Assembly (NCBI GenBank): GCA_040437565.1
Contig: JBDOQK010000006.1
Location: 744,001 to 804,608 of the forward strand
Length of the DNA stretch: 60,608 nucleotides
From: Albugo candida
Lineage: Eukaryota
Reading direction: 5' to 3'
Made by a program: the position numbers and the translations under genes. Position 1 is the stretch's first letter; every line of letters starts with the position of its first letter. This document shows, one piece after another, positions 7,376-59,519 of the stretch. The notes under the pieces are model-generated. The model saw nothing but the letters and a program-made list of their open reading frames with translations, made no database searches and was not told where the DNA came from.

Positions 7376-7933
7376 TCATTTTCGATTTATAAAGGTTTGG
7401 TGAAGTGTCACCATCATTTTGGGTATCAAGACGCTTTGTAACGATAGTAATGCTGGTTGAGACTGCTGTACTTCCTCATGATATTCACCAAGTAGTCGGA
7501 ATGCGTACTGATATTCGGTTTGAACTTTTGTGAGGTTGCTTTTTCGATCCCCTAGTTCTGATAGAGTCGTTTTTAGCTGCAAGGAAAGCTTCCCAATGCA
7601 ATCCTTTTGGTCAGCCACCTCGTTTGTTTTCTGCTGAAGTAGCAGTGTCAATGTTTGATTCATTTCTGTTAGCTCGACTAGCGCCTCATTTTGATGCGTA
7701 AATGCTGACTCCGATTGAGCCTTCGAAGCCCTGAGATTACCAATCTCTCTCTTGAGCGACTCGTTCTCTTTGAGGAGTCTTTGGAGCTCGGTGCTGACGG
7801 TCGCTGAGTTTGCTGAGGCTGCTGGCCGGGTTCGCTGGTGTGGTTGCTCCTGAATTGGAACATAGCCACCACCAACGCGGCGTATGTTGGCGGGTTTAAG
7901 TCGTGAGTTCGTTGTTGTTTGTCTGATGTTCAT
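7376..7933 (-). CDS. Hypothetical coiled-coil protein (may extend to ~7270 in another frame)
   Basis: 185-aa ATG-initiated ORF with heptad-rich ELQRLLKENESLKREIGNLR segment; further coiled-coil-like VDELRATVDHLQRQVQQLQQ just downstream. Confidence 0.6.
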   Translation of the reverse strand: MNIRQTTTNSRLKPANIRRVGGGYVPIQEQPHQRTRPAASANSATVSTELQRLLKENESLKREIGNLRASKAQSESAFTHQNEALVELTEMNQTLTLLLQQKTNEVADQKDCIGKLSLQLKTTLSELGDRKSNLTKVQTEYQYAFRLLGEYHEEVQQSQPALLSLQSVLIPKMMVTLHQTFINRK

Positions 7934-8218
7934 CGTTGGTTAATTTGTTATTGAGAAACAAAGCACTCCGAGGATTAAGCATCGAAGTCGAAAGAATACG
8001 ACAGAAGAAAAGAACATCATTATATTGAGTCTCTTAGCTAGAAATTCGTCGTCTCCGATTCCTATTGTAGCTCCTAGTTTCGTGATGAAGCTTCTTGCTC
8101 AGCGGATATAAATTAGAAAAATTATATGCGAATTGACCACTTCAAGATTGAGTTGACACAAAATGACAAGACAATGGAAGTTTTATGAAGGAATCGTCTG
8201 TTGAATCGAGAAGAAGAC

Positions 8219-10340
8219 ATTATTTACTATTATTATGACCGTTTTCGGGGCGGCATCAAGTCCTTATTATCGGACTCTAGCTTTCACTTACTCCTGACTG
8301 TTTTTTATTCCGGTAGTATAATTCCTGCCTATTGCAGAGACGCTGAGTAAGTTGTTTCTAATGGCACGGTCTTGTTCTATAATTGACAGGGCTTATAGAT
8401 CTACTTTATTGCAGAGACAGACTGGAAGATATGTCGACTCGTAGATCCTTGTCGAGAATAGTTGGGAGGCAGGTAGGTGTACGACCCCGATAGGTGGCAT
8501 GTCACCAGCAGAATCATAGTATCGGAGCATGTTCAACTGAGCTGGAATAGTCTATGCGCGGCAAAGAATATGACCAAAGAGTGTCCATCGAGACCTCTTT
8601 AGGTGGAGTAGAAGCGGTGTATTACAGCGCGTGTACAGATCCGGGTTGCTAATGTGCTGGGGGTAGTGGATACGGAGGTCGCGGCGAAGATGACGACGGT
8701 GATAATTTTCAAGACTGCCAATGTCGCGGTCTATGAGACCTTATGTACCACAGTTGTACAGCAGAATAGGTAACACAGAGACATTATATGAGCGAACGCG
8801 TAGTGTTTCTGGAAGGAGGTGAGGATGGATCCATAGTTGCCAAAAACTTTTAAGGGAAGCTGTTTCATGAGCTTTACGCTGCTGCACGTCTTCGGATTCG
8901 CCAAGGAATGATCCCAGTGTGCGAACGGTACGCCAACTTAGGACGATCGTGTTCGGTGCACGAGCAATAATCGCTCGCCAAGTTTTGCTCACATTGATGG
9001 TCAAAGACCATGCCCGGAATACTCGCTCGGCAACAAGAAGCATATTATCACGACGAGTAGGATCATGGTGAATAAAATCCACATCATCTGCAAAAAGAAT
9101 GGTGCTGAGATCGTGCATGGAAATCTTGAGGTGCGGCATAAATCTCGTACTACCGCTTACAAGTAAACCACAAACAAAAGTGGGGAGAGCGCATCTCCTT
9201 GAGATGTACCATGATTACGTGTGAATGCTGAGTAGCATTTCATATCAAGTCGATTGGAGGGTCGTGGCGCTGAGGAGAGCTTTTATTAACCGGACCTCGT
9301 CTGGATCCAAAATCGAGTTGAGAACTATCAGCAATTGATGTAGGTCGATGGTGTCAAAAGCTTTGTTGAGGTCAATACCGAGAATGTGCATATTGGTCTG
9401 GAAGCGACGCGTTAGAGCGATATTCCATCTTAGGACCTAGACTGCATCAGACAGGCGACTCGAAGTCCACTCTGGCTAGACGAGAGCCACTTATCCACTT
9501 TGTAAGGATGCAATTTAGTATGACCGTGAATATGGTCTTACGAGTGGNNNNNNNNNNNNNNNNNNNNNNNNNNNNNNNNNNNNNNNNNNNNNNNNNNNNN
9601 NNNNNNNNNNNNNNNNNNNNNNNNNNNNNNNNNNNNNNNNNNNNNNNCGTTAGAGCGATATTCCATCTTAGGACCTAGACTGCATCAGACAGGCGACTCG
9701 AAGTCCACTCTGGCTAGACGAGAGCCACTTATCCACTTTGTAAGGATGCAATTTAGTATGACCGTGAATATGGTCTTACGAGTGGGATGAGAAAGGTGAT
9801 CGGTCGAAGGTTGTCACACTTGCCCGTCGGTTTAATAGGCCTCAGAACGGTGTTTATAGCACCGTACATAAGGCTTTCGCGCGTGGATGTGGTGGGGTTC
9901 TGGATATGACGATTTGCTTGCTTTAGCGAGGATGTCGGAAATCACTGGGGTCCTATACTTGAGTAATTCAGCTGGGACGTGATCTGCGACTGGTGCGCTA
10001 TGGTTGTTCAGAGATCGAAATGCTTGTGTAACTTCCTCCTCCGTAATGGGTGATGTCATGCTGTATCTTCCAACATAGACGTCAATGAGATGAGGTTTGT
10101 GAAACTGGGCTGAAAGAAATTCCATGATGACTTGGGCAGTTCCGCTGGAGCAACCAATGATGCGCCCATCATGATCACGTATAAATAGCGCTGACCGCTT
10201 TCGTGGCGTGAGCCGTCAGACGATTCGATACATCCTCTAGCAAAGCTTGTCGATGAGATCGATAGAGCAGTCGGTCGACAGGGTCATCTCTGCTGGTGAT
10301 CATGGCATGGAGATGTCTTTGCGTGCGAGAAAGCACTCAC
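8219..10340 (-). mobile_element. RTE-like non-LTR retrotransposon, 5'-truncated and degraded
   Basis: RT motifs DLNKAFDTI, SQGDALSP, ILFADDV and C-terminal LPILLYNCGT; (TAA)n-like tail at ~8219-8237. Confidence 0.88.
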
Positions 10341-10692
10341 CAATTCACTCAAATGGCCATCGGTACCTATTCGCATCAAAGCCATCGCGAATACCATCAT
10401 CTGACCCTAAATTGATACCGCACACCGTCTCGATCACAACTATGAGACAGCCGAGCTTTCTCGCACGCAAAAACATCTCTGTGCCCTGATCACCAGCAGC
10501 AATGACCCTGTCGACCTGCTGCTTTATCGATCTCACCGACAAGCTTTCCTGCGAACCATCGAAAAAGTGCAAGGAGACGGTGTAACCTAGCACATTATGG
10601 ATCTCAAAAAATACAAATACACGGAGAGGATGTATCAGATCGTCCGACGGCTCACGCGACGAAAGCGGTCAGAGCTATTTATACGTAATCAT

Positions 10693-12994
10693 TATAACGA
10701 AAGCACAACTAGTTCTCAGTGCTAAAAATGGAAAGTAATATTAAGAGTTAAAAACAATTTTAAAAATAAATGTATAAATCCCCTCCTAAACTGATCGCTC
10801 CTTCAAGATTGTTCGAAGAACACTGTCTCTGCAAGTTGCCCTTTTCACGACACATAAACGTCGTGATGCGTAATCCGCTACACGCCCTTTCAACTTGCAC
10901 TCTTGCGAATTCCACTTTCATTGCGTAGTTGCAGTAATTGGGGCGCACCAAGTGGCTTCGTCAAGTAATCAGCAAGCTGCACAGCTGAAGAGATATGATT
11001 GAGTTGGATCTCGCCTCGTTCAATGTGGTACCGAACATAATGCATCCTTAGGTCAATATGTTTAGCTCTTGGTGTATAGCCTTGATTCGTCGCAATACTT
11101 ATCGCCGACTTATTGTCCATGTCCACTGTAGTCGCGGTCTTGCACGTGGCACCCATCTCTTTGAGCAAGTAACGAATCCATATAATTTCTTGTGTAGCAA
11201 GTGCCAGTGCCATATATTCTGAAATAGCAGATGACAAAGCTACCGAAGTTTGGCGTTTGCTTTTGTATACGACAACCGCGCCACCGAGCAAAATCAATAC
11301 ACCAGATGTAGATCGACGAGTCTTCTTGTCACTTCCCCAATTCGNNNNNNNNNNNNNNNNNNNNNNNNNNNNNNNNNNNNNNNNNNNNNNNNNNNNNNNN
11401 NNNNNNNNNNNNNNNNNNNNNNNNNNNNNNNNNNNNNNNNNNNNACTCATGTAATTGATTTCGAAGTTGCACTCGGTTGTGAAGGTTTTTCTTCGCAAAG
11501 AACGTCTTAAGAGCCTCCCACGCCTCAATAGCCGACTCACATTCCCGAACCATAAACTGATAGGTTGGAGAGAGGAGCTTCACCAGCACAGCCAAGGCCT
11601 TCATGTCGGAGACTTTCCATTCGGGATGCTCCTGCAGCACTACAGGCTCTGGCTTGATCCTAACGTGATTCAACAGGTCTTTGCGCGCGAGGGTCATGCG
11701 TGCATTAAATTCCCACATGAAATAGTTGTCATCCGTGAGGATGTCATTGAGAGCTAATGTGTTTGGGCTCATACCCTATGGTGCATGACACTTAAAACCA
11801 GCAAACCCTGATTTTGAATGGCCAATTTTCGGATCATATTACCCTATAATGTTGCCGTTGCTGATTAGCTAAAGTAGATCATAAAACAAGGATATAATGT
11901 TGTCACTGTTGATTGGCTAAAAGTACATCATAAACAATCGTCCTTGCCCTGACCTAGGCTCAGTCATCACCACTAACCACTTACCCGCTTGAAACCTCAA
12001 CCATCAACCTGCATTCCGACTAATATCGTACAATTATGCCTCGCCTAGCAAAGTTAAAAAGGCAAATGCGGAGAGAGGTCAAGCGCGCCAAAACCGATAA
12101 CAGCTCAGGCATTCATATATCTACTGATAGCAGTTCTGGAGAAGACCTGGATGTTTCGGAAGGCAATGATGACGAAAATCTCGACTTCGCATCTGTTGAA
12201 GCAAATATTGGAAGAGCCTATCAAGCAGCTGTTATAGTTCTACCGTTACCAGGATTAAACCAGAAGGCAGCTGTTGGCTGTAATCTTTTGACCAATTACT
12301 TTGCTGTTGCAGGGCCAGTTTTGCAAGAAGCTGAGATTACGGATGAGGGTGACAAAGAGGATGACGACGAGGATGGTGCAGTCTGGACCAGGGAGAGGCT
12401 GACAACCACCATTAACACACTTGCCACTCGAGCAAAGACTGGTAAGGCCGAGTAAAACCGGCGACTTGCAGTTCTTTCTTATCTTCAGCTGGTAAAATCT
12501 GGATATGCGCGAATAGCAGNNNNNNNNNNNNNNNNNNNNNNNNNNNNNNNNNNNNNNNNNNNNNNNNNNNNNNNNNNNNNNNNNNNNNNNNNNNNNNNNN
12601 NNNNNNNNNNNNNNNNNNNAGGAAAATGCCAAAATTCAGACGACTTTGCACCGCTACTGCTCCATGAAAAGTTGAGATAATAAAAATCCGAGACTTGTGA
12701 AGGGAAGCTTAGAGCATGCTCTTTGTTGCCAAAGGCTTCTTTTCTGTGTAATTTGTATTTTGGCCAAGCCTTAGCGATTCTTGCAGGACCACTGAAGTTG
12801 CTGGCTAACGAAAGCACAACTACTTCTCAGTGCTAAAAATGGAAAGTAATATTAAGAGTTAAAAACAATGCTGAGAATGAATGTATAAATACCCTCATAA
12901 ACTGATCGCTCCTTCCAGATAGTTCGAAGACCACTGTCTATGCAAGTTGCCCTTTTTCACGACACATAAACGTCGTGATGTGTAATCCGCTACA
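10693..12994 (-). mobile_element. Ty1/Copia LTR retrotransposon inserted in the RTE copy (interior collapsed by a gap)
   Basis: LTRs at 10693-10882 and 12806-12994 (~93% identical by eye); TSD ATCAT/ACCAT; gag MSPNTLALNDILTDDNYFMWEFNARM; RNase H WGSDKKTRRSTSG...RAKHIDLR...LADYLTK; PBS-like GGGTATGAGCCC. Confidence 0.92.
11779..12805 (+). mobile_element. Insert at the copia PBS/5'-LTR junction, probably a DNA-transposon remnant
   Basis: Separates PBS+TA from TAACGAAAGC of the LTR; 139-aa acidic ORF 12036-12455 that continues past a stop as RRLAVLSYLQLVKSG; imperfect ~50-bp tandem repeat at 11844-11938. Confidence 0.45.
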
Positions 12995-14405
12995 ACCATG
13001 ATGGGCGCATCATTGGTTACTCCAGGGAACCGCCCAAGTCATCAAGAAATTTCTTTCAGCCCAGTTTCACAAACCTCATCTCATTGACGTCTCTGTTGGA
13101 AGATACAGCATGACATCACCCACTACGGCGGAGGAAGTTACACAAGCGTTTTGGTCTCTGAACAATAATGGCGCACCAGTTGCAGATCACGTCCCAGATG
13201 AATTACTCAAGTATAGGTCCCCAGTGATTTCCGACATCGTCGCTAAATCAAGCAAACCGTCATATCCAGAACCCCACCAGATCCACGCGCGAAAGCCTTA
13301 TGCACGGTGTTATAAACGCTGTTCCGAAGCCTAATAAACCGATGGGCAACTGTGACAACCTTCGACCGATCACCCTTCTCATCACACTCGTAAAACCATA
13401 TTCAAGGTCATACTAAATCGCATCTTTACATAGGTGGATAAGTGGCTCTCGCCTAAACATAGTGGCTTTCGAGCCATCGTACGCCTAGTCATGTCGCGGG
13501 ATCCCTTGTCTTCACAATGAGTTCGCATAGCGAGTCTATCGATACGAGGACCGCAAAGGTTGAGAAGCTACAAATAGCCATGCTATTCAAGCTGTTCTTT
13601 ACGTAGCACTCTCAGCCTTACGCTTTTTTGTTGGTGGATCAGAAAGTTTTCCGGCGCTAGCGGTCTAAGTCTAAGATGACATTCATATAGCGGGGTCAGC
13701 GAGTAGCTCAACAGGATAATCGTTTAGACAGTTCTCCCAACGCATGATTGTGATTCGTCAAGGGTGATTTTACAACTAGGATGAAATTGTCTACATCTAG
13801 TGCGTGATTTCACCAGATGCCATCCCGCAAAAGCCATTGAGTCGTCAGTAAAAATGACGGTCTACGCCAGCTTGGTGAAGGAATTAGTACTTTGAATGGT
13901 TTTTAGCAAGCGAATGCGCAATGGATGTTGTGGGTGCCGTTGCTGGCAAGAATGTGTTATCACTAATCGATCCTATTTGTGATCCTCGCTGACAACGCTA
14001 AGGATCATAACGTTGGCGCTGAATTGACTTCCCAAAGACAGGTTCACATTCACAGGCACGAAATGCGGTCATAATGATGCAAGCGTACAAGAAGGCAACC
14101 GCAAGTTTGAAAACGCGCTTCTTAAAAAGGTTTGATGAGGTCTTGGCATATACATAAAGAGCAAGAAGAAACCATCGATATACTTCGACTTTCTCTACGT
14201 TGTTAGTTACTATAAAATGTACGAGTGTGTGAATGAGATACAAGGATTTTCTCGTTCCTTGCACACATAAACGACTGACTCGTTCTCAATCAAAAGTTGT
14301 TCATATTACTCATTAGATTTATGCTGGTGACTTTCCGGGGTCATGACTGTACGTCCACTATAAACGGTAGTCCCTAAGTCATGCACGGGGCTTTGAAACG
14401 TAGAA

Positions 14406-16321
14406 ATGAGTCAATCAACTCAAAACGGCTTTCACGAGCGTAATCGCTACCGAAAATCACCACCGGATTTTTATGCACTAGCCCAGAAATTTCCAGCTTT
14501 GCTACCGCAGTACGATGAAAAATTGTTGATGTAATTTTTGACTGATTTTCGGCGTAGTCTGCGTAACGTTGATGCTACACGAAAGAGTGCAGGGTTTGCA
14601 TGGGACGATCCGTACGCACTACGGTAAGAAAACTTGTGCTTGATTGGTCCATTGAATTTACTCCGATGCATTATTAGGGAGCTTACAACAGTACTTCTGA
14701 AACACGATTTTGGTGTCAAATGGACGATGCCCATAAATCGTCTGTGCCCGCCGGTCAATATATATAATGCTGGGTTCCAGAATATAAAGTACTCAGAGTC
14801 AATTAATGTCGTATAGGTACCAAACAGGCTCAATTACTTGCACTGGATCGAAGAACTCGTCGAAAAAGCTGACCGCGAGGGCCTGGTGGGGGACGTGAGT
14901 TCAACCCAGTCAAAAAATACAAAAGTATTTGCTGGATTGGATATTGGAACCGGGGCAAGCTGCATTTTTCCTTTGTTAGGAACCTCATTGCACCCCGATT
15001 GGACTTTTATCGCAACAGAAATTGACAACACTTCATACTCGGCAGCTCTCATCAATCTGCAAAAAAATCCACACTTAATTGGCCGAATCAAATTGAAACA
15101 TGTTGTCGACAATCAATTCTTCAAAGGAGCACTAGATGAAGAATCCAAATCCGCCATCACATTTTCGATGTGTAATCCACCATTTTTCGCAAACTCGGAT
15201 GAAATAAAGCCTCACCCGCACGCATTCTGTATGGGCTCCCCTCATGAAATGATTTATCCTGGAGGAGAAGTATGCTTTGTTAGCGAGATGGTAGATCAAA
15301 GTGTCACCTACAAAGAGCGCATTGTTTGGTTCACGTCCATGCTAGGGAAAAAATCTAGTTTACGACCTCTACTAGCCAAAATGCGATCAACAAAACAAGT
15401 GACGTATTATTGCACAACTGACTTCTGCCAGGGGCAAACGAAACGCTGGGGTATTGCTTGGACATTTCACGAGGAGCTAAGGAGTGCATTTGAATCCTCC
15501 GAAGGAGTTGTAACGAAAGTCTTGGGTAAACGGAAGGCATATCGAAAACGCCAACTAGAATTTCAGATCAACATCAATGATTCAACAAGTAAGCTTCCTG
15601 AACATGCAACATTGTGCAATGACTCATTGGTGTGTTAGCCCTATCAGCTGGATTTCTTGATGTTATAAAGCGTATAAAAGGATTTTGTCAGAGTACGATC
15701 ACGAAACACAGTGAAGACTATAAGCTCTCGCTTATTGAACTGACTGAACAAAAATCAGTTGATAAAGGTGAATGCTTCATTGGCAATCTCAATCTGTGTG
15801 AAGGTGTCATGTCATCCACATCAAAGCCAAATAATATCTTGGACGCGACAATCGAAGTGACACCACATTCAGATTCGAAGCAGACATATGTACAAGTTTG
15901 CTTGACATATAAGGCCGGTCAGTGTGCTATATTTTGGACAACATCTGAGCAATTAAAAGCTTCTGTTCTTCGCACGGGACGAAAATGGCGGCGTATGAAC
16001 AACAGATCAGNNNNNNNNNNNNNNNNNNNNNNNNNNNNNNNNNNNNNNNNNNNNNNNNNNNNNNNNNNNNNNNNNNNNNNNNNNNNNNNNNNNNNNNNNN
16101 NNNNNNNNNNGCCAAATAATATCTTGGACGCGACAATCGAAGTGACACCACATTCAGATTCGAAGCAGACATATGTACAAGTTTGCTTGACATATAAGGC
16201 CGGTCAGTGTGCTATATTTTGGACAACATCTGAGCAATTAAAAGCTTCTGTTCTTCGCACGGGACGAAAATGGCGGCGTATGAACAACAGATCAGATTGT
16301 TGCAACACTAGGAAGACTTGA
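14406..16321 (+). CDS. METTL16: METTL16/RlmF-family RNA m6A methyltransferase (U6 snRNA methyltransferase-like), multi-exon
   Basis: Spliced N-terminus MSQ..HERNRY..PDFYALA / ELTTVLLKHDFG..RLCPP / VPNRLNYLHWI joined by short GT-AG introns; SAM motif GLDIGTGASCIFPLL; catalytic MCNPPFF; FCQGQTKRWGIAWTF. 3' exon partly duplicated across a gap. Confidence 0.92.
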
Positions 16322-16496
16322 AAGCTCCCATGAAGAGAAGAGGCACAGCTAACAATCGTCTCTCGGTGTCGCGCGATCTCACAGTCACTCCTCAGACGCA
16401 ATGGTACCAGAATTGACTACGGTACGAGCATTTGTGGCTCTGTTTGAGCTAAAATGATATCTTCTTATCTCAATTCTGCAATTCATTATTTCCGCC

Positions 16497-17927
16497 TCAT
16501 TTAAAACACTTGGTATGAGCACAGCAAAATCCCGACCGCTGTGCCCACTTCGAGCAATTGACAAAATTGCACCGCTTACCGCCCCCGTGAGATCGACACA
16601 GTCGATTCTGATGTGCATTTTTGAAGCACCCTGGAACATTGCATTGGCGGCCACCTCCGTGAGATTTACAAAGACCTCTTGTCTGTGCAAACTTATAACA
16701 GCCGTCTTTCTTGCACCGAGAACCTCCTCCATGATCAGGACATTTACCACGACTCAAGGCAACCCTATGACATCCAGAAAACTCACAACACTTGCCACAA
16801 TGACGATTGCAAAAGCCCCCAGAACGTCGCAAATTTGTGCATCCAGTATACGAACAGTAAACATGCAGCTTCTTTTCTTGGAGAGACCCGTTTGTGCTGG
16901 CGAGTGTGTGATACCGTTCAGGGGTCTCATTTAGTCGCAAGAACTTCCGTTGTGGTTCTGACTGCAATATTGCGTTATCTGTATTTTGTTCTTGAATGAT
17001 TCGATCAGTTGTTAGATCCAACATGTAAGTCGAATGAGGCACGTTCAGATCATCATCGTTCATCGCGGTCCCATAGACGCTATTGACGGAGCTAAATAAC
17101 GTAGAATCAACTCTTGCATCTTCAAAACTACTTATTGGTCGATCAAAATACGGCTCGTTCATGTCTTGGAAAAAGTACGAAGGGTGCCGGCAAAATTCTT
17201 GGATAAAAACTTTCGGTGGAGATACGAGGGCAGTCATCATGCCTGGATATTCTGTGCATACCGATTCACTATCGACAAAAGGTAGCTCCGATACTGCATC
17301 AGATCTTGAAGACGGGGTGCGGTTTGATCCGTACAACGATAAAAGTTTTGTCAGTGTCGGGTCTGTAAGTGAGCTAGTATGTCGTGGATGCAATTCCTTG
17401 CCGTTTGCACACGAATTTTGATGCTTATTGTTTGCTTCTGAAGCGACAGAAGATACTGCCGATAAAACAAGACGTTGATCATTGTAGGCGCAGCTACTTT
17501 CGTCAAATAACGCTGAAATTGGGTTTTGCTTGATTTTCTCCCCTTCACCAATGTATGGATATGAAGCAATAATCGGATTCGAAAAAGATGAGGTTCTCAG
17601 TTTTTGCATTCCGTCACTATACTGGAATGAGTGACCCATTTCCAGAGATATGTGATGTGCCATAGATGATAAACTCGAAGTACCAATGCAAGATTGCAAC
17701 TTGATGAGCGGTTTCAACTGACGATGTATACAGATTTCATTGTCGAAAAGCAGCTCGCGCAGTATGTCAGGTTCTTCGGATAAAGCTAGCAGTCCAGACG
17801 CTTTTGTCCCATTGAGGCTGGGCGGATACGACTTGATCAACTTGGTTGTCTCTGACATGTCTGACATGGATGTAAATTGTGGGTCTGAACAAGTTCTTGC
17901 GTCTGATTGACTTGTGATACTATTCAT
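16497..17927 (-). CDS. Oomycete WRKY19-like CxxxGC..CxxHGGG repeat zinc-finger protein
   Basis: 476-aa ORF; Ser-rich N-terminus and C-terminal repeats such as CKKDGCYKFAQTRGLCKSHGGG and CNVPGCFKNAHQNRLCRSHGGG. Confidence 0.88.
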   Translation of the reverse strand: MNSITSQSDARTCSDPQFTSMSDMSETTKLIKSYPPSLNGTKASGLLALSEEPDILRELLFDNEICIHRQLKPLIKLQSCIGTSSLSSMAHHISLEMGHSFQYSDGMQKLRTSSFSNPIIASYPYIGEGEKIKQNPISALFDESSCAYNDQRLVLSAVSSVASEANNKHQNSCANGKELHPRHTSSLTDPTLTKLLSLYGSNRTPSSRSDAVSELPFVDSESVCTEYPGMMTALVSPPKVFIQEFCRHPSYFFQDMNEPYFDRPISSFEDARVDSTLFSSVNSVYGTAMNDDDLNVPHSTYMLDLTTDRIIQEQNTDNAILQSEPQRKFLRLNETPERYHTLASTNGSLQEKKLHVYCSYTGCTNLRRSGGFCNRHCGKCCEFSGCHRVALSRGKCPDHGGGSRCKKDGCYKFAQTRGLCKSHGGGRQCNVPGCFKNAHQNRLCRSHGGGKRCNFVNCSKWAQRSGFCCAHTKCFK

Positions 17928-40970: not shown

Positions 40971-42256
40971 AAAGACGAGTTGATACGGAGTACAGTGCGA
41001 CATCACGCTGTATGACAAAGGCATCAGCGGTTGCGTGAGGAAGGTGGCAGACAAGGAGCACCGATGCAGCCACCAGCGGGTCCGTCATAAAGGCCACTGC
41101 CAGCACCGTCGTACTTTGCAGCGCAAAGACCCCTGCAGATAAGGGACCTGAAGCTTACCATCGAAAACTTCGACGGCAATGAGGTGTACCCAGGCATCGG
41201 GTCAGGGTTTGGACCCTGGAGGAAATTTATCGGAAGGTCAAAATCGCTGAAAACCTCAGTGGATGCCTGTGGGCTGAAGAAATACAGCTGGATTCTCTCG
41301 GTCGACATCTATCCTTTAGATGGACAGCCCTTTCACAGCCAGGTGGACATCTGGTGCGAGGAGAACCCCCAAGTTTGGTACTCAATGGACCGAATGAACA
41401 CCAAGTTCGACCCACGAATTTCGAAGTCACAAGCGTACAAGCTCTTCGCATCGAAGAAAAAGGAGGCCGTTTCGTCGAATGATCACATGCTGTACCTGAT
41501 ATCGCTGAGTAATGCTGTCGGTGGTGCTCATGACCAAGTTTTCGAAAATATTGCTGAGTTTGCCGGCTCTTTCAGGGCGTGCTATTGGCACGAATAAATT
41601 CTCAGCGTGAAGATTATTGCAAGCCGACTGTGGGCCACTGTGAAAGGCTCTATCGTTAGGCGAACTAAGAATAATGATGAGCGCCAACGTAGAAAACCGG
41701 GTGCCCGTTTCAAGTGCGGCAAAGAAGGTCACTTCAAACGAGAATGCAAACAAAAAGTCAAGAAAAAATTTGCGCTGGTCGTTGCGGACAATGTCGATGC
41801 CACCTGCCAATGAAATTTCAATAGTGACGAAACCATCCCTACTTAATGATACAATGGAGTGTGATGAGGACTACCTACTTCCAAACGGAGAAAGCTTAAA
41901 AATGCACATCAAAGGAAATGCCGATTTTGTGGTACGCGTCGACGAAGAGCTTCGTCAAATCAAGCTACGCAATGTCTATCACTCGGCAGATCTTCCATGG
42001 AATATACTATCTTATGGAAAATTCGAAGAAAGAGGGTATGACCTTCGCTATGATGGTACTACACGTCAGTGGTTCGACGAAGCGACGGTTTCAAGATTTT
42101 CGATTTTAAAAAGGACACGAATAACGTACTGGTGGTACGTGTCGTCACCGACGATGTCTTTGGAATTGATGTCATGAAAATTGAGGAGTCCGTAGCTGCA
42201 GCACTGGTTGAAGCCGCCCGTTCGACGATCCCAGATGCTCAACAAGGCAGTCTACT

Positions 42257-42497
42257 TTGTCAAGGTTTTCATTACACTGTTTATCTGGTAGTTTAACTAC
42301 CTTGCTTATCCTATCATGAGGCCCTGACCGTGTGAATATCACTTAAGTCTGACTTCATACCTAGAAAGGCAGATATTTCCCAAGCTTATTTCTTGACGCC
42401 TCAAACCTCTGCCCACACTACTGGGGATCGAACTAACGACCTCCGGCAGCGGGTCCGTGCGCTCGAGTGCTTAACTGACTAAGCTGGGTACGGACCC
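42257..42497 (-). mobile_element. tRNA-derived SINE (~240 bp); head also duplicated at 46482-46501
   Basis: Minus strand reads GGGTCCGTACCC-AGCTTAGTCAG (A-box-like) ... GGTCGTTA-GTTCGATCCC (B-box, 42423-42433); the whole nest is flanked by a perfect 17-bp TSD CAACAAGGCAGTCTACT (42240-42256 and 46502-46518). Confidence 0.8.
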
Positions 42498-42762
42498 GTC
42501 GGGGGGCTTAGCGGTTAGTACAAAAGGGCTGCGGTGGGGCCTCTCGGCGGAGGCAAAGATTCCTCCACGTAAATATCAACCTACGCAATGAAGATATGGA
42601 CGTGTCAAGACCGTCGGCAACTACACCAGAAAATAACTGTACAGGAGTTGGACCGGGCTCTTCAGAGCGTTACATACAAGGGATTAGAATACAGTAGATA
42701 AACGACCAAACTGTAGTAACAGAACGGTGTTTAAATAAAAGTACTACGGGCGAACACCCTTA
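42498..42762 (+). mobile_element. Short (~265 bp) non-coding insertion in the SINE head, probably a non-autonomous partner of the LINE
   Basis: Bounded by ACTRAGCTGGGTACGG at 42478 and 42763; GC-rich 5' end with GGCTTAGCGG and a GCCTC/GAGGC hairpin; no long ORF. Confidence 0.6.
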
Positions 42763-42781
42763 ACTGAGCTGGGTACGGGAC

Positions 42782-45700
42782 TTCTCAATTTGCCGGCTAC
42801 TACGTAACGCGTAAAACTGATACATCAAAGCGCCTTTTCAGCAAAAACACGCACTTTTCCACCCTTTCCTGTCGAAGACAATCGTTACTATCGACATATC
42901 CAGCTTACCTATCGTTACATCGCCTGATGTGGGTGGTACTTCTACATTTAATGTGTCCGTTACTGACACGTTACCGGCGGAAAGTACAGCTACCCGCACA
43001 CCTATACCGTCGGACTCTACCGCGTTCGCTGAGGTTATTGGCCAATCCGAGACCGAGATGGAGATTGACACGCCTCTCTCTCCCACTCCAATTTCTGCCA
43101 ATCAGCCGGTGGCAATGGAGGTTGATGACAAGAGCGCGTCATCAGCTTCGAAACCGGTTAAAACGGCGAGTGAAACCGACCATCGCCCAAGTTTAGCCGA
43201 GATCTTGAATGGTCAAGAAGAAGTTCGCAAGGACAAAGCTGTAAAAAAGCGAAGTGGAATGTTGAAATGCCAAAACGTTTAGCTTCAGATTTACGTGCAA
43301 TTAAACAACTTTTTTAAGGCGGACGTCAGTCCTGGGATGTTTTGGATGTACACTTGGCGGCAGCAAAGCCAATTATACTGCCAAGTGCAAAGTATTTGAT
43401 CGTCCTGGAGACGGGACAAACTCTTGTACGCACACCATCCGCCCAAATCCTACAATCGTTCGTTCGAGATCATGGGAGCACAATTCTTGACGATTTATTT
43501 GATGCGGGGAAAATTGGCCAACTGGCTAAATTGCCTGGGGGTAATTTACGCCTTCTCGTCAAGAGCGAGGAAGTTTGCCAGAAGTTGGATCATGAGAGGA
43601 TTACTCTCATGGGGAACCAGTACTCATTCCGAGAGTTCGATGTGCTCGGATCAAGATACTTCATGGACGTTTTCGGAATTGGACCGGAAATGTTCACAAT
43701 AATAATTGCATCAGCACTGCATCGTCTTGGCTGCGATGTTTTGTATGAAAACTTTCGTGAAGTTCTGGCTTATAAACGGCTATCCATGTCTACGTGGAGG
43801 GTGTACTTTCGCTCCACGTCATGTCCTGAACCTCTGGTCTTGGCTGGAAAAGTTTGCGAACAAATTTGTATCGAAGGGAGATACTATTTGGCTCGCGGAA
43901 AAGGGGCTCCGTTACCTGTTGAGCGATTGAGGATGAATGAGCGCAGTCCACACTGCTTATTGCTGCCAGTGAACACTCCGAACTCGACTCAGCGAGTAAC
44001 GAAAACCCTGACTCCAACAACTGAATCTAAATCGATGCCAAGCAAGCGCACCGGAAAAACAACAAAACTAGCTCAAGAGAAGCAATACATAGAAGATAAA
44101 AAAAAGAAATCAACCTCAAGTAAGGCCAAAAGTCCATCCAAAACTGACGAAAATCCTCTGTCCTCCGACAACTACCGAAGCTTATACATCGGAACGTCAC
44201 CAGAAGGCATCTTCGTCTCCTGTTTACGAACCGGACGAGAAGCTTGAAAGCAGTGAATCCCAACCGGCTGAGGAATCAAAACAAGCTCAAGAATCACAAC
44301 CAGCTTCTTGGAAAATTGTTCGCTCAAACAACAAAAGAAGCCGGTCGTTAACAGCTTCAAAAGCCTGCTCAGTAAAGATCCTCCAGAAATTGAAAGGGCT
44401 TGCCACCAGCAGTTTTTTCGATGTCTTAGCACTATCGATGTGGAATATACCAAGATAGATGTTGCGACCAATCCAGGGTTCGGAAGCGCTATCATATCGT
44501 TCCGATCAATGTTTTGGTACCTAAAGATGTAGCTACGTCGAAAGAAGCAGCACATTTTTTCACAAAGAAGCACACCAAAATCGTGAAAGACTCTCGTCCT
44601 ACTCGCGTGGGTGAAGTAGTAGTGAACTTGTTGACAGAAGATCTACTGACGGCACAAATCCCAACGAAGCCCGATCGGCTTCTTCAAGCGGAAATTCACG
44701 TGCTCAAGGCGGAGAAGCATCTTGGATTCACATCCAATGGAGATAGCCTTCTCCAGTTTGCATTCAATCATCCGATCGCATTACATGGAGTGCTCAATAA
44801 GGGTGTGCGATTCAATGATCCGTGTTTAGCTGAAGTGTTGCATGTCCACACGATCAATCGTATACTTGCTGCATCCGATCCGAATTTGGACACCACTTTC
44901 ATTACAAAATGGTCGAAAAAGATTGGAAGAAAAGTCCCAACAAAACGTCAAGCTATGTTTGACGCAACCAATAGTTGGTGGACGGAGTCACCTGAAGTAG
45001 AAGAGCTCACTTAAGCCACCAAATCGATCGCCTTATTCGAGCTCATGCTGATGTGCACTGCTCCGGCCATTTTTTATAATGACCACTGGATTCAACACAT
45101 TACTGGTCGTTCGGTGCTGTGGATACCAACACACCATTGTCGCTTACTACACACCAATGCACTGATTATGATATTGCGCTCCCCACTAGGCACACTTTGC
45201 CTTAGTGAGTGGTTTGATGCTCGGTGGGATAGTCCCCTTTACTACAATTTGGAAGCCATTCAGCTTTCGACAAATTCTCTACTCGATGAAGTATCTATTT
45301 TGCAACTGAGCGAAGTAGATGGAGTACAAACACTCATTGTGGGTGCTATCTCTGTTCAGTATCAAGGGAATCTTATCGGATTACAATTTTTGGACCAATA
45401 AAACCATTCTTTTAGTCAATACAAACGGAATCAAAAAGAATGGCCAACTTACAATCCAACATACGTTTTCAAAATAAGCACTTTGTTGCGTGCAGGATAC
45501 ACGTTTTCGTAATCGTCAGCAGCTGGAGACGTTTCGCTTTCACCTGACATCGACATTCAGAACTAAATCGTTTATCAGTGATATGAATAGTCTTCACTAT
45601 CACCCCTCTTAGGAACGAGTAAACGGTGTTATGACCATTATCCGGAACGATTTTCCTGGATTTCAAACTGCTAAAGCCGTGCACAACGCCACAGTTCCAG

Positions 45701-46481
45701 ATCGTTATCTGGTGGTCCGTTTGGTGGTTCATGGAGCACCAGTATACGTCCACAACGTTTATGCTCCGGGGGATTCAAAGGAACGAAAACCTTTTTTCGA
45801 TCAGCTTCCAATTGGATCATTCGAAGCAAACGCATCACATATCGTCTGTGGAGATCTCAACACAACTCTCTGTCCAAGTCTNNNNNNNNNNNNNNNNNNN
45901 NNNNNNNNNNNNNNNNNNNNNNNNNNNNNNNNNNNNNNNNNNNNNNNNNNNNNNNNNNNNNNNNNNNNNNNNNNNNNNNNNCTACGACTTCCTCTCCTCC
46001 GGGACAGGTGGAAGCCATTCAGGATGGTGTTGGAAGATCTTTGCTTTGCATTGGTTGCCATTGCGATCCACTTCATCTGGACGGATCGGAATAGACGACT
46101 TTTCGACCAAATATCTTCAACATCAACAGGACCAGATGTTTCGGTGATCTACAGCAAATTCAGCGCCCAAATTCGGTTTTATCAATGTCAGTGCTATGAT
46201 CCCGCACAGCATGATCAGCTTCAGATGGTTTTGCTCGGTCTATTCCAATCAGGTTCAGCAAAAAGATATTTCTCCGGGAGATCAGATCTTCTCAAGATAC
46301 AAAGGCGTGAGCGCTCATAAGTCTGAGTTGCGTGGCTAGTCTACTTAGCCGTCTTCAACCTCGCCAAGTTCACTTTTTGTGACATTTCAAGCCACATCTG
46401 CATGTATTATATGTTATTTATTGTAGTCTAGGCATTTAGAAAAGTCATTTACGTGTAATTCTAGTAATATAGACAACTTCA
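42782..46481 (+). mobile_element. Tx1/L1-like LINE with long frameshifted ORF1 and APE-RT ORF2 (RT lost in gap)
   Basis: ORF1 pieces 42929-45401; APE motifs LVNTNG, VQDT, VHNVYAP, IVCGDLN; C-terminal IWTDRNRRLF; bounded by the ACTGAGCTGGGTACGG duplication. Confidence 0.88.
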
Positions 46482-49400
46482 ACTGAGCTGGGTACGGACC
46501 CCAACAAGGCAGTCTACTGGAATTCCACTTGCGATTTGGTCACCTGGCGTATGACACCATCGAGAGAGTGGCTAATGACCCGTACAGCGGGATACTTCTC
46601 ACGGATGAGAATAGTCTGGCTTGCTTAACATGTGAACAGGGCAAGCAGAACCGCAGCCATCAACCTGTTCAAGACACAGGAATCAATGCTCCTGTCGACC
46701 GAGTGGGTGGAGTTATCTGTAGCGATATCAAAAGACCAATAGTGCCGATCGACAGGTGTGGAAACAGGTAACTGATCAATTTTGTTGATCACAAGAGCAG
46801 TACTGCCTTGTGTTTCAGGCAAAAACTCAGGATAAAGCGACCAAGGCGTTTGCAACCTTACTTATTTACTTCGATAAGCGATTTATCTGCAAGCTGCACT
46901 ACCTCCGTACTGATGGGGGAGTTGGGTACAAGGTCGTCGATCCATTTTTAGGAAAACCGGTGTGCAGCGCAAGGTATCGGAAGCGGATAACCAAGTACAA
47001 ACGGAAAGGCCGAGCGTATGCGCCAAACTCTGATGAACATGGTGCGCTCCATGATATTTGGGTCAGGACTGCCTTTGAGCCTTTGAGGAGACGCTGCGGA
47101 ATACGCGACCTATATACTAAACATCAGACCGACTCGAGGAAATGCGAGTCGTGCTTTGCCGCTTCAAGTACTTAGTGGAGTCAGCACAACACTGACGGAT
47201 ATCGTTATTTTTGGATCACCATGCACCCCGATTCGGATAACATATATAACACTCTTGACCGGCGTGGGGAAGCAGGGCTCATAATTGGCAAGAGAGACGA
47301 AACTAAAAGCTATCAGGGGCTGTTCACGAAGGATCGTGTCGTTTGTACGACGCAGCATGTCAGCAATAACAAGAACCTTAGCGAGGACGCGAATGCAAAA
47401 CTCGTTCTACCAAGAAGAAGACCGCTGATCCCATCGACATTACCGTCGATTCAACAGCTGAAACTTGTAAGTCTATTGAAACAATTCTAGAGTAAACTGG
47501 CGATATTGGGCATCGGGAGGAGCCTTGAGTAGGATCAGGGAAGGTCAAAAAGGGCGGCAATCGCGGTGGACGGAAAAGCAAAACGACTGAGGCTTAGCAA
47601 CCAAGCCAACAATGAGAATGAAGACGCGATTTGATGGGTTGAAAACCACACCACGCGAGATTATTGGCGCGGTTTATCGTGTGAATCCGAAGAACTGGAA
47701 AGAAGTCATCGAGAGCGACAATTGCGTGGCATGGAAGCGCGCTGCTGAATCGGAGATCTGCTCGCTCAAAGCCAATGACACGCGGGAAATGGTGTTGCGC
47801 AATGATGGAATGCGTCCTCTCACACAAAAAGTGGGTGTTCAAGACTAAGACAGATTCTGACGGAGCGTCGAACGGTCAAGGCGCGTACGGTGGCGTGTAG
47901 GAACGAGCAGTCATTTGAAGAATATTATACGCTGACGCTCGCCACGGTCATGGACATGATGATTGCGAAGGTTATCCTTGCACTATCCGATATATGAGGT
48001 GAACCGACACGTCATGGGAACGTGCCTGATGCATATGTCAAGGCCTCTGCTGAACCGGACTGGACATTTACCTACATGATCCACAAGAAATGAAAGTAAG
48101 TGAGAAGGAACTACAGCGTCGTGGCGCTCAGCGCACAAACAAGTGGTGCTTCGGCTTTAGCGCAGCCTTTATGGATTAAAACAAGCTGGAAGACTCTGGA
48201 CGCAACTCCTACATTCAGAACTACTTCGTTTCAGATTCGTTCAATGTGTCACAGACTCTTGTCTCATCTACAAAGGGGATCACGATGAAAAGATTCATCG
48301 AAGATTTGAGTGGATGATGCGTAAAAAAGCGGTAACGCTGCAGATCAAGGACCTGAACATCGTTAGCAAGTTTCTAGGGATGCGACTTACCTATTCTTCG
48401 GAGTTTGGTTTTCAGATGAGCTACTATTAAAGTTTGGCCTGAACGATGCACACCACGTGATGACACCCATAGTGCTCGATCATGATACCGACATGCGGGA
48501 AGCTGACCCGATTATACTCGCGGATGGGCTAGTCAGATCAGCATAACTGAAAGACTTTCAGTCGATCGTGAGATCGCTGTTATCGTTGACTCGATGCACA
48601 CGCCCGGACATTGCTTATGCGGTGCACCGATCTACGCGTCGAACCGATCCTCCTACGGTGAGCGACCGGCAATTGAGCAAAAAAATTGCCAGGTATTGAG
48701 AGGAATCAAAAACGTCAAGTTTCAGCTTGGACATAAACAGGTTCAGCAAACACTACTGTGCAACTTTCAAGCGCAAGCGATGCGGGCTTTGAAGATGATG
48801 ATATAAGTCGGTAAGCGGAGCGATTTTTCGTGTGGGTGACATGATAGCGGGCTGGACGTGCCGCAAACAAGCATCAGTATCGCTATCGACTATGAAAGCA
48901 GAATACACATCGGCTTCACATGCCGGTCAAGAGCTCCTCGGATTACGCGAACTAGTTGTTGAGATGGGGATAAACGTGGAATTTCCTATGCAGATGGAGA
49001 TAGACAATTAAGCAGCTATCCACCAGATGGAAAAGGAAGGAACTTCGACGCGAGCGAAACACATCGACTTTGAGCTGAAGTTTATTAAAGATTGTGCTAA
49101 ACGAGGCACCGTAAAGTCCTGTTATGTGCACACCGAAGATATGGCAGCTGATTTGCTTACGAAGGCACTTAGCTGTTCGACTAAAAGAATTGATGGGACT
49201 ATGTTCGCTATTACGCGAAACTAGCAAGGATCAGGACATGAATTTAGGTAACGGACACACGGCAGCGTGAAGAAGAAGTGTTTCAAAGTAACGAATACAC
49301 ATTGCCATCCGCCGGACGTTTTGGTAAAAAGATCCAAGGAATCTAAATAGTGGTCATGCGTACCTTCCGCTATGGAATATCCCGACGCGGTGGTTTCGTA

Positions 49401-59096: not shown

Positions 59097-59275
59097 GATA
59101 CACACTCGTACGGTAGTGGTGGACGCTACTGCAATGCAGGACTAGCAACTAGGGTCATGATATCATCTCACGCAGGTTTTTTGCGAAACGTTTTTATATG
59201 TTTATATAGTATTTAAGATAGCCTAGGCAACTAGAGAAGTCAGTTAGTCTAATTCTAGTAATAGAGACACATTCA
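59097..59275 (+). mobile_element. 3' tail fragment of a LINE related to the 42782-46481 element
   Basis: 59219-59275 aligns at roughly 80% with 46424-46481 (TAG.CTAGGCA..TAGA.AAGTCA...TAATTCTAGTAATA.AGACA..TTCA); 5' boundary uncertain. Confidence 0.65.
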
Positions 59276-59519
59276 ACTATGCTTCACTTGCGCTGTACTT
59301 GACTTTGACTGATTTCGAAATGAGCTGCAATCAAGGAAGTTTCTGACCAGCCAATTTCATTCCGACCAGACGGCTTCTATCCTCAATAGAGAAGTTTTAC
59401 GCTTCCAGAGTTTGAGTAGCCATAGTTCTATTTTTGGGAAGTGAGACAAGTATATAGGAAGGGAGCGCGTCGTCAATTAAATTTCAGATATAAAAAACGA
59501 CTATTTTTTGTTAGGGTAC

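What the first reader, a model, noticed from the sequence alone, without database searches (positions are those of the whole stretch)
42240..46518. A tRNA-SINE head appears to act as a site-specific landing pad for a Tx1-like LINE and a second short element
Seen: the copia pol gene is interrupted by a 4.2-kb block with a perfect 17-bp TSD. The motif ACTRAGCTGGGTACGG(ACCC) occurs three times, at 42478, 42763 and 46482. Its reverse complement GGGTCCGTACCCAGCTYAGT is the 5' end and A-box of a minus-strand tRNA-derived SINE. Two different inserts (42498-42762 and the LINE at 42782-46481) have their 3' ends joined at the same nucleotide, right after AGCTCAGT. Known: the Tx1 clade includes sequence-specific families that target other transposons, tRNA arrays and snRNA genes. 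Inference: an oomycete Tx1 family with an APE endonuclease that nicks the tRNA D-arm/A-box sequence, parasitises a SINE and regenerates its target via a ~20-bp TSD so insertions stack in tandem. I am not aware of this being described in oomycetes.
Basis: partly seen in the sequence, partly recalled or inferred. Interest (0 to 1): 0.85.

Follow-up and report, generated by a model that had tools for sequence, protein, structure and literature searches.

The report
LINE that lands in tRNA-like heads
In this white-rust oomycete genome a LINE retrotransposon and a short partner element repeatedly insert at one exact nucleotide inside the tRNA-like promoter motif AGCTCAGT, here in the head of another short element, which adds a new target to the known class of site-specific LINEs.

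Summary
A block at 42257-46501 interrupts a copia-type pol gene and has a perfect 17-bp duplication on each side. Contigs from 4 of 4 public runs show paralogous copia copies without the block.

The block is a high-copy minus-strand SINE (SINE-A). The first 16-20 nt of SINE-A occur three times. Between these copies lie a plus-strand 265-bp SINE (SINE-B) and a plus-strand LINE. Both have their 3' ends joined directly to ACTGAGCT.

The LINE encodes an APE endonuclease, a reverse transcriptase and a CCHC-like C-terminus (L1 group). A 100-N assembly gap hides about 3.3 kb of it, so the real block is about 7.5 kb.

Other loci in the read-derived contigs show the same pattern. The LINE 3' end is followed by ACTGAGCT, then 5-12 variable letters, then a full-length LINE 5' end or the SINE-B start. 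Several of the variable spacers read as canonical tRNA 5' ends. This supports site-specific insertion with a 16-20-bp duplication that regenerates the target, and it suggests the target is wider than this one SINE.

Three things are not shown: membership of the Tx1 clade, that the APE domain determines the specificity, and that SINE-A derives from a tRNA (Rfam and ARAGORN do not recognise it). I rate it a new member of a known kind.

The parts
42240..42256 (.). Left copy of the 17-bp target-site duplication in the copia-type pol gene
   Evidence: D3, 100% identical. joint 42239->46502 with 17 letters fitting both sides, in 4 of 4 runs.
42257..42497 (-). SINE-A, 241 bp, high copy. Its 5' head is the reverse complement of 42478-42497, with A-box-like and B-box-like motifs.
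   Evidence: summed word depth of about 21,000-49,000 against 63-66 for the matching single-copy copia-junction contigs in X1. Unrelated flanks follow 42497 (13 contigs in X4, agreement 0.39) and precede 42253 (7 contigs in X8, agreement 0.47). Sequence.
42478..42497 (-). Head copy 1 (ACTAAGCTGGGTACGGACCC on the + strand), contiguous with the SINE-A body
   Evidence: D1
42498..42762 (+). SINE-B, a 265-bp plus-strand short element whose 3' end abuts ACTGAGCT
   Evidence: summed depth of about 6,000-17,000 in the organism-A runs X1 and X5. Other copies carry ...CCGGTTCGAATCCCGG... just before 42521 (loose ends in X4 and X8). Other copies start at 42495/42496 directly after a LINE plus spacer.
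42763..42781 (-). Head copy 2 (ACTGAGCTGGGTACGG + GAC). It is the right duplication of SINE-B and the left duplication of the LINE.
   Evidence: D1
42780..46481 (+). LINE, full length at its 5' end and interrupted by an assembly gap. This copy is dead.
   Evidence: 5' start at 42776-42780 recurs joints. ORF2 N-terminus has 2 in-frame stops. tblastn with P0002.
43318..44247 (+). LINE ORF1 (309 aa open stretch), no Pfam family
   Evidence: 100% identical to a protein named as Albugo candida hypothetical protein.
45319..45881 (+). LINE ORF2 N-terminus, APE-type endonuclease
   Evidence: tblastn: P0002 residues 1-188, 83.5% identity. Exo_endo_phos E=0.0086, below the cut-off, on the fragment. 1.4e-9 on the full-length relative.
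45882..45981 (.). 100-N scaffold gap hiding about 3.3 kb of ORF2, including all of the RT
   Evidence: loose ends at 45881 and 45982 continue in the LINE reading frame.
45982..46320 (+). LINE ORF2 C-terminus and stop codon
   Evidence: tblastn: P0002 residues 1296-1397, 83% identity.
46482..46501 (-). Head copy 3 (ACTGAGCTGGGTACGGACCC), the orphaned SINE-A 5' end
46502..46518 (.). Right copy of the 17-bp target-site duplication
59198..59278 (+). Second, older LINE 3' tail (80.7% identity). Its flank keeps 6 of 8 letters of ACTGAGCT and then diverges.

Best explanation
**Proposed history and mechanism**

1. SINE-A retrotransposed into a copia-type pol gene and made the 17-bp duplication.
2. Two later, independent target-primed reverse transcription events hit the same phosphodiester bond in the SINE-A head. 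One was by an L1-group LINE (APE endonuclease, RT, CCHC-like C-terminus). The other was by the non-autonomous SINE-B, presumably mobilised by that LINE.
3. The hit bond lies on the strand that carries the tRNA-like sense, directly after AGCTCAGT. This corresponds to tRNA D-loop position 16/17, inside the pol III A-box motif.
4. The nicked 3' OH primed cDNA synthesis, so the element lies antisense to the head with its 3' end against ACTGAGCT.
5. The second-strand break fell 16-20 bp away, near the 5' end of the head. The whole recognition core was therefore duplicated, and a fresh target remained on each side. This explains the tandem stacks.
6. Insertion separates the A-box-like motif from the B-box-like motif of SINE-A, so it should silence that SINE copy.

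**Shown:** the anatomy, the empty and filled sites, the recurrence at other loci, and the coding capacity.

**Inferred:** the order of the two events, the exact nick (within 1-2 nt), recognition by the APE domain, and trans-mobilisation of SINE-B.
For: - Triplicated 16-mer, 3 matches against 0.01 expected.
- Perfect 17-bp duplication. The empty-site joint is present in 4 of 4 runs.
- The SINE-A head is native and terminal. In X4, 13 contigs run into unrelated sequence after 42497.
- Of 12 shown between-joint rows (6 more not shown), 8 leave the LINE only at 46489/46490, after ACTGAGCT(G).
  - Five different letter strings then lead into a LINE 5' start at 42776-42780: ATACGACCC, AGACAGGC, ACACT, ACATCCCCT, ACATCCCCCCA.
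  - Two lead into a SINE-B start: ACACTCGGGTCG, AGGTAACCCAAC.
  - Their depths (43-203) are near the depth of the single-copy junction contigs (63-78).
- Read on the other strand, AGACAGGC and ACATCCCCT give GCCTGTCT+AGCTCAGT and (A)GGGGATGT+AGCTCAGT. By standard tRNA numbering (established knowledge) these are tRNA positions 1-16.
- Two further SINE-A variants join directly to the LINE 5' start (42458->42780 and 42464->42780).
- The LINE encodes APE and RT. P0002 is 89% identical to the window fragment, with RVT_1 at 1.4e-32 and Exo_endo_phos at 1.4e-9. Its best solved relative is human L1 ORF2p at 3e-48.
- Precedents from passages read: APE-type Tx1 and R1 clades hold most target-specific LINEs (PMC4640811). 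Tx1-Mar and SINEU share a target inside another transposon, which was taken as evidence of trans-mobilisation (PMC4494074).
Against: - There is no genome-wide census. Only the best-supported rows were printed (29 joints, 6 between-letter rows and 625 loose ends were not shown). The side lengths of the 46489-> joints were not shown either. So the fraction of LINE copies at this site is unknown.
- The only other LINE tail in the window (59198-59278, 80.7%) has a flank that keeps just 6 of 8 letters of ACTGAGCT and no head-like sequence after it.
- Three other AGCTCAGT sites in the window are uninterrupted. The 8-mer alone is either not sufficient or not saturated.
- The duplication ends exactly at the SINE-A 5' terminus. 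That is a coincidence under a purely distance-based second nick.
- SINE-B and the LINE share no 3' tail beyond 6 of the last 9 nt. The partnership therefore rests on the shared target only.
- ACTGAGCT could formally be the conserved end of the LINE transcript.
Confidence: 0.72

Rival explanations
1. ACTGAGCT, possibly with a short variable tail, is the LINE's and SINE-B's own 3' terminus, for example read-through carried along from a master copy. Insertion is then not site-specific, and the match to the SINE-A head in this window is a one-off.
For: - ACTGAGCT is invariant at all 8 shown LINE exits, while what follows varies.
- The old tail at 59198-59278 keeps part of the motif in an unrelated flank.
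- The last 9 nt of SINE-B and of the LINE are 6 of 9 alike (D1).
Against: - The full 20-mer after the LINE equals the native SINE-A head and is followed directly by the copia duplication.
- Uninterrupted SINE-A copies carry the same head.
- Two more SINE-A variants adjoin a LINE 5' start with their own head variants.
- The variable letters read as tRNA acceptor strands of matching register, which a random tail would not.
Confidence: 0.1
2. The stacks arise without repeated endonuclease targeting. They come from RT template switching between LINE and SINE RNAs that carry read-through tails, or from ectopic recombination or gene conversion between head copies, after one founding insertion.
For: - Tandem LINE-spacer-LINE and LINE-spacer-SINE-B junctions are frequent.
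- The middle head copy differs at its end (GAC instead of ACCC).
Against: - At least 7 different spacers occur, with a narrow total length of about 16-20 nt including ACTGAGCT. This fits duplications of different targets better than jumps or a single amplified array.
- Both orders occur: SINE-B then LINE in the window, and LINE then SINE-B in the contigs.
Confidence: 0.12
3. The arrangement is a scaffolding or assembly artefact that joins parts of different repeat copies across the 100-N gap.
For: The window is a draft scaffold with 12 gaps of 100 N, one of them inside the LINE.
Against: - Both outer junctions are reproduced with 0-2 differences by contigs of separate runs.
- The two sides of the gap continue in the same LINE reading frame (loose ends).
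- The flanks are one copia gene with a perfect 17-bp duplication.
Confidence: 0.03

Closest known systems
Tx1-Mar LINEs with SINEU in crocodilians (Tx1 clade); Tx1L in the Tx1D transposon of Xenopus
   Same: An APE-type LINE and a short non-autonomous element share a preferred site inside another transposon, and the shared target is the argument for trans-mobilisation (PMC4494074, passages).
   Different: - Here the target is the tRNA-like promoter head of a SINE, and apparently other tRNA-like heads.
- Insertion is at one nucleotide with a regenerating 16-20-bp duplication.
- The host is an oomycete, whereas that paper describes the Tx1 clade as found in animals.
- Clade membership was not tested here.
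Dewa (spacer of tRNA-Leu arrays, zebrafish), Keno (U2 snRNA), Mutsu (5S rRNA): target-specific LINEs
   Same: Sequence-specific LINEs that use multicopy small-RNA genes as safe sites (PMC3706591 and PMC4494074, passages).
   Different: Dewa sits in the spacer, not inside the tRNA. None of the passages read describes an APE-type LINE inside the tRNA D-loop/A box.
NeSL-1_TV (tRNA-Pro), LIN15_SM and LIN25_SM (tRNA-Arg, tRNA-Glu), and oomycete Utopia (U2 snRNA)
   Same: LINEs inserted at fixed sites inside small-RNA genes. Utopia shows that oomycetes host strictly site-specific LINEs that occur in arrays (PMC4640811, passages).
   Different: Those LINEs encode a restriction-like endonuclease. This element encodes an APE-type endonuclease.
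Dada DNA transposons of Perkinsus marinus
   Same: They target the same motif. Their duplication TAGCTC is part of the A box of tRNA genes, and tandem insertions occur (PMC3706591, passages).
   Different: They are DDE transposase elements with 6-7-bp duplications, not retrotransposons.
Dictyostelium TRE5/TRE3 and yeast Ty3
   Same: They use pol III genes as safe havens.
   Different: They are positioned through pol III factors at a distance from or at the start of the gene, not at a fixed internal nucleotide (PMC3706591 passage; Ty3 from recall).

Membership tests
Target-specific APE-type non-LTR retrotransposon (functional class) | Encodes an APE-type endonuclease and a reverse transcriptase | tested here: met
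   The window fragment is 89% identical to the 1398-aa P0002. P0002 scores RVT_1 1.4e-32 and Exo_endo_phos 1.4e-9. The window's own RT lies in the gap.
Target-specific APE-type non-LTR retrotransposon (functional class) | Independent copies share the same 3' flanking target sequence | tested here: met
   Of 12 shown between-joint rows, 8 leave the LINE at 46489/46490 after ACTGAGCT(G), with 7 different letter strings following in the rows that lead into a LINE or SINE-B start. Two more SINE-A variants adjoin the LINE 5' start. There is no full census, and one old tail in the window keeps only 6 of 8 letters.
Target-specific APE-type non-LTR retrotransposon (functional class) | The endonuclease itself nicks the target sequence specifically | not testable with these tools
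   Needs a nicking assay with the recombinant domain.
Tx1 clade | The RT domain groups with Tx1 references in a phylogeny | not testable with these tools
   No Tx1 reference sequence could be obtained. None of the 120 listed relatives carries the name. The atlas gave only generic RVT_1/Exo_endo_phos/zf-RVT clusters.
L1 group (L1 and Tx1 clades) | APE-linker-RT-CCHC architecture, with the closest solved relative being L1 ORF2p | tested here: met
   Human L1 ORF2p at 3.2e-48 over residues 26-820, plus a weak second stretch (score 2.3 bits, i-Evalue 180, not significant on its own) in which the query's C...CGE...H...DC letters line up with L1's C-terminal cysteine-rich motif.
tRNA-derived SINE (SINE2), for SINE-A | The head is recognisable as a tRNA by tRNA models | tested here: not met
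   No Rfam match at E<=1 over 4.8 kb or at E<=10 over 551 bases. ARAGORN finds none at default, -ps90 or -ps80. Only at -ps70 does it call an undetermined tRNA with a 4-nt anticodon.
tRNA-derived SINE (SINE2), for SINE-A | A-box and B-box motifs at pol III spacing | tested here: inconclusive
   By eye: AGCTTAGTCAG from nt 13 and GTTCGATCC from nt 64 of the sense strand. Variants in contigs read GCTCAGTCGG. The box consensus is recalled, not computed.
SINE (generic), for SINE-A and SINE-B | Short, non-coding, high copy, with defined termini and flanking duplications | tested here: met
   Depths, random flanks at both SINE-A ends and recurrent SINE-B start. 17-bp duplication. For SINE-B, other copies show GGTTCGAATCC upstream of 42521.
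Pol III factor-guided targeting (TRE5-A / Ty3 type) | Insertion at a distance from or at the start of the gene, not at a fixed internal sequence | tested here: not met
   Every junction seen lies inside the head, directly at ACTGAGCT.

The most novel reading that the evidence does not exclude
An oomycete L1-group LINE family has evolved an APE endonuclease that reads the pol III A-box core (T/C)AGCTCAGT. It inserts antisense at tRNA position 16/17 in genuine tRNA genes as well as in SINE heads across the genome, and it takes SINE-B with it. Each hit decapitates a pol III unit and leaves a new target, so arrays grow. This would be the first APE-type LINE with an intra-tRNA target. If its RT groups with Tx1, it would also be the first target-specific Tx1 lineage outside animals.
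Probability: 0.4. Interest if true: 0.7.

Novelty: new member of a known kind. Interest (0 to 1): 0.55.

Why it matters
Site-specific LINEs are the natural models for programmable, RNA-templated gene insertion. They also show how mobile elements survive in compact genomes.

- **A new specificity to study.** This would be an APE-type element that reads a short, universally conserved pol III promoter motif and regenerates its own target.
- **Transposon against transposon.** Each insertion splits the promoter of a very abundant SINE.
- **Annotation.** Gene models in public records treat parts of this LINE as host genes. Stacked arrays of this kind also break short-read assemblies (12 gaps in 60 kb).

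Tried and rejected
- **Whole genome:** none is held for this window.
- **Earlier findings:** A second call failed on a missing field and was not repeated.
- **More DNA copies:**
  - Metagenome contigs gave 4 loci at 23-31% identity.
  - Viral contigs gave none.
  - Genome contigs gave 1 locus at 26% identity.
  - None of these belongs to this family.
- **RNA runs:** no RNA holder listed.
- **Self-comparison of the window:** the only hit besides the block itself was the 81-bp tail at 59198. tblastn with P0002 found no other LINE copy.
- **Duplication around the old tail:** an 11-nt repeat (58887 / 59277, 91%) is most likely chance. The stretch between has no LINE homology, and 10 such repeat families occur in 1.1 kb.
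- **Shared 3' tails:** among SINE-A, SINE-B and the LINE, all local alignment scores fell within the range reached by shuffles.
- **Pfam on ORF1 and the two ORFs between ORF1 and ORF2:** nothing at E<=1.
- **ORF1 structure:** mean pLDDT 44, with only residues about 40-120 above 65. The wide fold search gave a best Z of 3.3. The human L1 ORF1p central domain scored Z 3.2 (rmsd 3.2, 71 aligned), tied with unrelated chains, so this is no evidence.
- **Clade naming:** tried through relatives' names and the protein atlas. Neither gave a Tx1 or L1 label.
- **Prior description:** literature searches found none. 'L1-Tx1' with 'oomycete' gave 0 papers. PMC5006619 had no relevant passage. Supplements were closed, and Repbase Reports are not in the library. 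Either could hold such a family.

Full report
**1. What is in the sequence**

- The 17-mer CAACAAGGCAGTCTACT stands at 42240-42256 and 46502-46518, identical in both places (D3).
- The flanks encode a copia-type polyprotein. Pol_BBD scores 1.2e-4 upstream and gag_pre-integrase 4e-4 downstream. Both are below Pfam's cut-offs, but they are in the order seen in a related named protein.
- The 16-mer ACTRAGCTGGGTACGG occurs at 42478, 42763 and 46482. That is 3 matches against 0.01 expected, and 0 of 100 shuffles gave 3.
- Only the two outer copies continue with ACCC. The middle one continues with GAC.
- The window is a draft scaffold with 12 runs of 100 N. One run, 45882-45981, lies inside the LINE.

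**2. Is the block a real insertion?**

I laid the contigs of four public runs on 42000-46800 at 85% likeness (coded X1 and X5 'organism A', X4 'organism B', X8 'organism C').

- In 4 of 4 runs a contig joins 42239 to 46502, with 17 letters fitting either side.
- These contigs differ from the window's copia by 13-27 letters per aligned piece (26-27 in the 173-nt piece). They are therefore paralogous copia copies without the block.
- The filled junctions are also reproduced. Contigs cover 42000-42282/42285 with 0 differences (X1, X5). Contigs cover 46473-46800 (46473-46763 in X5) with 0-2 differences (X1, X4, X5).
- The best holders may include the sample the window was assembled from, so this is not fully independent. 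It does exclude a scaffolding artefact at the outer junctions.

**3. The parts**

*SINE-A (42257-42497, minus strand).*
- It is very abundant. Summed word depth is about 21,000-49,000 in X1, against 63-66 for the single-copy junction contigs. The tool warns that this is not a copy number.
- Its two ends are true termini. After 42497, 13 contigs of X4 run into unlike sequence (agreement 0.39). Before 42253, 7 contigs of X8 do the same (agreement 0.47).
- The 20-mer is therefore the native 5' end of SINE-A, and uninterrupted heads exist.
- The tRNA ancestry is not confirmed. Rfam gives no match at E<=1 over 4.8 kb or at E<=10 over 551 bases. ARAGORN finds nothing at default, 90% or 80% thresholds. 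At 70% it gives an undetermined call with a 4-nt anticodon.
- What is visible is an A-box-like AGCTTAGTCAG, which reads GCTCAGTCGG in family variants, and a B-box-like GTTCGATCC about 50 nt further on. An 8-bp stem pairs nt 1-8 with nt 40-47.

*The 265-bp piece (42498-42762, plus strand; SINE-B).*
- It is itself a repeat. Summed depth is about 6,000-17,000 in X1 and X5.
- Other copies carry ...CCGGTTCGAATCCCGG... directly upstream of 42521, which is a canonical B box on the plus strand (loose ends in X4 and X8).
- Other copies begin at 42495/42496 just as here. The window copy seems to lack the middle of the head.

*The LINE (about 42780-46481, plus strand).*
- It has a 309-aa ORF1 with no Pfam family.
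- Its ORF2 N-terminus matches residues 1-188 of a 1398-aa relative, P0002. Its C-terminus matches residues 1296-1397. Both are at 83% identity.
- The gap thus hides about 1,100 residues, or about 3.3 kb. The LINE is about 6.9 kb and the block about 7.5 kb.
- The loose ends at 45881 and 45982 continue in the same reading frame in all four runs.
- P0002 carries Exo_endo_phos (1.4e-9) and RVT_1 (1.4e-32). Its best solved relative is human L1 ORF2p, at 3.2e-48 over residues 26-820. A second, very weak stretch (2.3 bits) lines up a C-terminal cysteine-rich motif.
- The window copy is dead, with two in-frame stops in the ORF2 N-terminus.
- Relatives at 40-60% identity in the RT occur in records named Globisporangium, Plasmopara, Peronospora, Phytophthora and Aphanomyces.
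- ORF1 is 100% identical to a protein named as an Albugo candida hypothetical protein.

**4. Is the site used repeatedly?**

This is the core of the claim, and it could be tested only through.

- 12 rows of letters between joints were shown, and 6 more were not. In 8 of the 12, the contig leaves the LINE 3' end at 46489 or 46490, after ACTGAGCT(G), and never at 46481.
- Five different short strings lead straight into a LINE 5' start at 42776-42780: ATACGACCC, AGACAGGC and ACACT in X1, and ACATCCCCT and ACATCCCCCCA in X5.
- Two strings lead into a SINE-B start: ACACTCGGGTCG and AGGTAACCCAAC.
- One row leads, after 33 letters, into another SINE-A.
- Depths of 43-203 are close to the single-copy level, so each is one or a few loci.
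- Two further rows show SINE-A variants, with their own head variants, joined directly to the LINE 5' start (42458->42780 and 42464->42780).
- Read on the other strand, the spacers are AGCTCAGT preceded by 8-12 letters. Two of them (GCCTGTCT-AGCTCAGT and GGGGATGT-AGCTCAGT) have the exact register of tRNA positions 1-16. In 6 of the 9 junctions I could read, including the window's, the letter before AGCTCAGT is T, as at tRNA position 8. The tRNA numbering is established knowledge and was not computed here.
- The total spacer length is about 16-20 nt throughout.
- Both orders occur: SINE-B then LINE in the window, and LINE then SINE-B in the contigs.

Caveats:
- Only the best-supported rows were printed.
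- The side lengths of these joints were not shown.
- The tool warns that joints laid below 95% likeness can come from repeats.
- No census of all copies was possible.

**5. Evidence that cuts the other way**

- The only other LINE tail in the window (59198-59278, 80.7%) is followed by ACTATGCT and then unrelated sequence. This is either an old decayed copy, a related family with another site, or a sign that part of the motif belongs to the element.
- Three other AGCTCAGT sites in the window are intact.
- SINE-B and the LINE share no tail beyond 6 of their last 9 nt.
- The duplication ends exactly at the SINE-A terminus. A fixed-distance second nick does not explain this, although the spacer lengths at other loci (16-20 nt) make it a modest coincidence.

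**6. Mechanism**

The most economical reading is target-primed reverse transcription.

- It starts from a nick directly after AGCTCAGT on the tRNA-sense strand.
- A second-strand break falls 16-20 bp away, toward the 5' end of the head.
- The duplication contains the whole core, so each insertion leaves two targets, and stacks follow.
- Insertion separates the A-box-like and B-box-like motifs of SINE-A.
- Recognition by the APE domain is inferred by analogy with the Tx1 and R1 clades.
- Annealing of read-through RNA to the target could add precision.
- Guidance by pol III factors is unlikely, because the junction is at a fixed internal nucleotide.

**7. Comparison with what is known**

I read passages (find mode) of three papers. 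I saw no full texts and no supplements.

- *PMC4640811.* Target-specific LINEs fall mainly into the early-branched (restriction-like endonuclease), Tx1 and R1 groups. NeSL-1_TV and two LIN families sit in tRNA genes. Utopia sits in U2 genes of oomycetes, in arrays.
- *PMC4494074.* The Tx1 clade is described as found in animals. Tx1-Mar and SINEU share a target inside a Mariner element, and this was used to infer trans-mobilisation.
- *PMC3706591.* Dewa uses the spacer of tRNA-Leu. Dada DNA transposons of Perkinsus duplicate TAGCTC in the A box.

The present element works like these. It differs in three ways: an APE-type enzyme is combined with an intra-tRNA-like target, a SINE head serves as the landing pad, and the target regenerates itself.

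Eight searches found no description of such an element in oomycetes. Repbase Reports and paper supplements could not be checked.

**8. Verdict**

- The central inference is supported by several loci, namely site-specific, stacking insertion at the A-box-like core. It is widened beyond this SINE to other tRNA-like heads.
- Three points remain open: the Tx1 label, the role of the APE domain, and the tRNA origin of SINE-A.
- It is a new member of a known kind, of moderate interest.

Noticed in passing
window 1-60608: The window is a draft scaffold with 12 gaps of exactly 100 N (1206, 5310, 9548, 11345, 12520, 16011, 24436, 34211, 38912, 45882, 53601, 60131). Repeats such as this LINE are likely collapsed elsewhere too.
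   Followed up: partly
window 59198-59278: A second, older LINE 3' tail (80.7% identical) with no LINE coding sequence upstream and no clear duplication. Its flank keeps 6 of 8 letters of ACTGAGCT.
   Followed up: partly
window 43058-44996: A public gene model (P0127, named as a hypothetical protein of Albugo candida, 531 aa) is built from three 100%-identical pieces of this LINE's 5' region and ORF1 region, as if spliced. It is most likely a mis-annotated transposon.
   Followed up: partly
protein P0005 (relative; no window coordinates): A protein named as a retroelement pol polyprotein of Albugo laibachii fuses copia domains with a stretch 75-78% identical to this LINE's endonuclease. This suggests another LINE-in-copia nesting, or a chimeric gene model, in the sister species.
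   Followed up: partly
window 42450-42497, minus strand: Nt 1-8 of SINE-A pair perfectly with nt 40-47 and enclose the A-box-like motif. This is not a tRNA cloverleaf feature, and I have no explanation for it.
   Followed up: no
window 44430-45401: Two open stretches between ORF1 and ORF2 (194 and 128 aa) have relatives (P0007, 50% identity) but no Pfam family. This LINE family seems to carry about 1.1 kb of extra coding sequence of unknown role.
   Followed up: partly
window 8536, 36801, 50989: Three further AGCTCAGT octamers in non-repeat context, all uninterrupted.
   Followed up: yes
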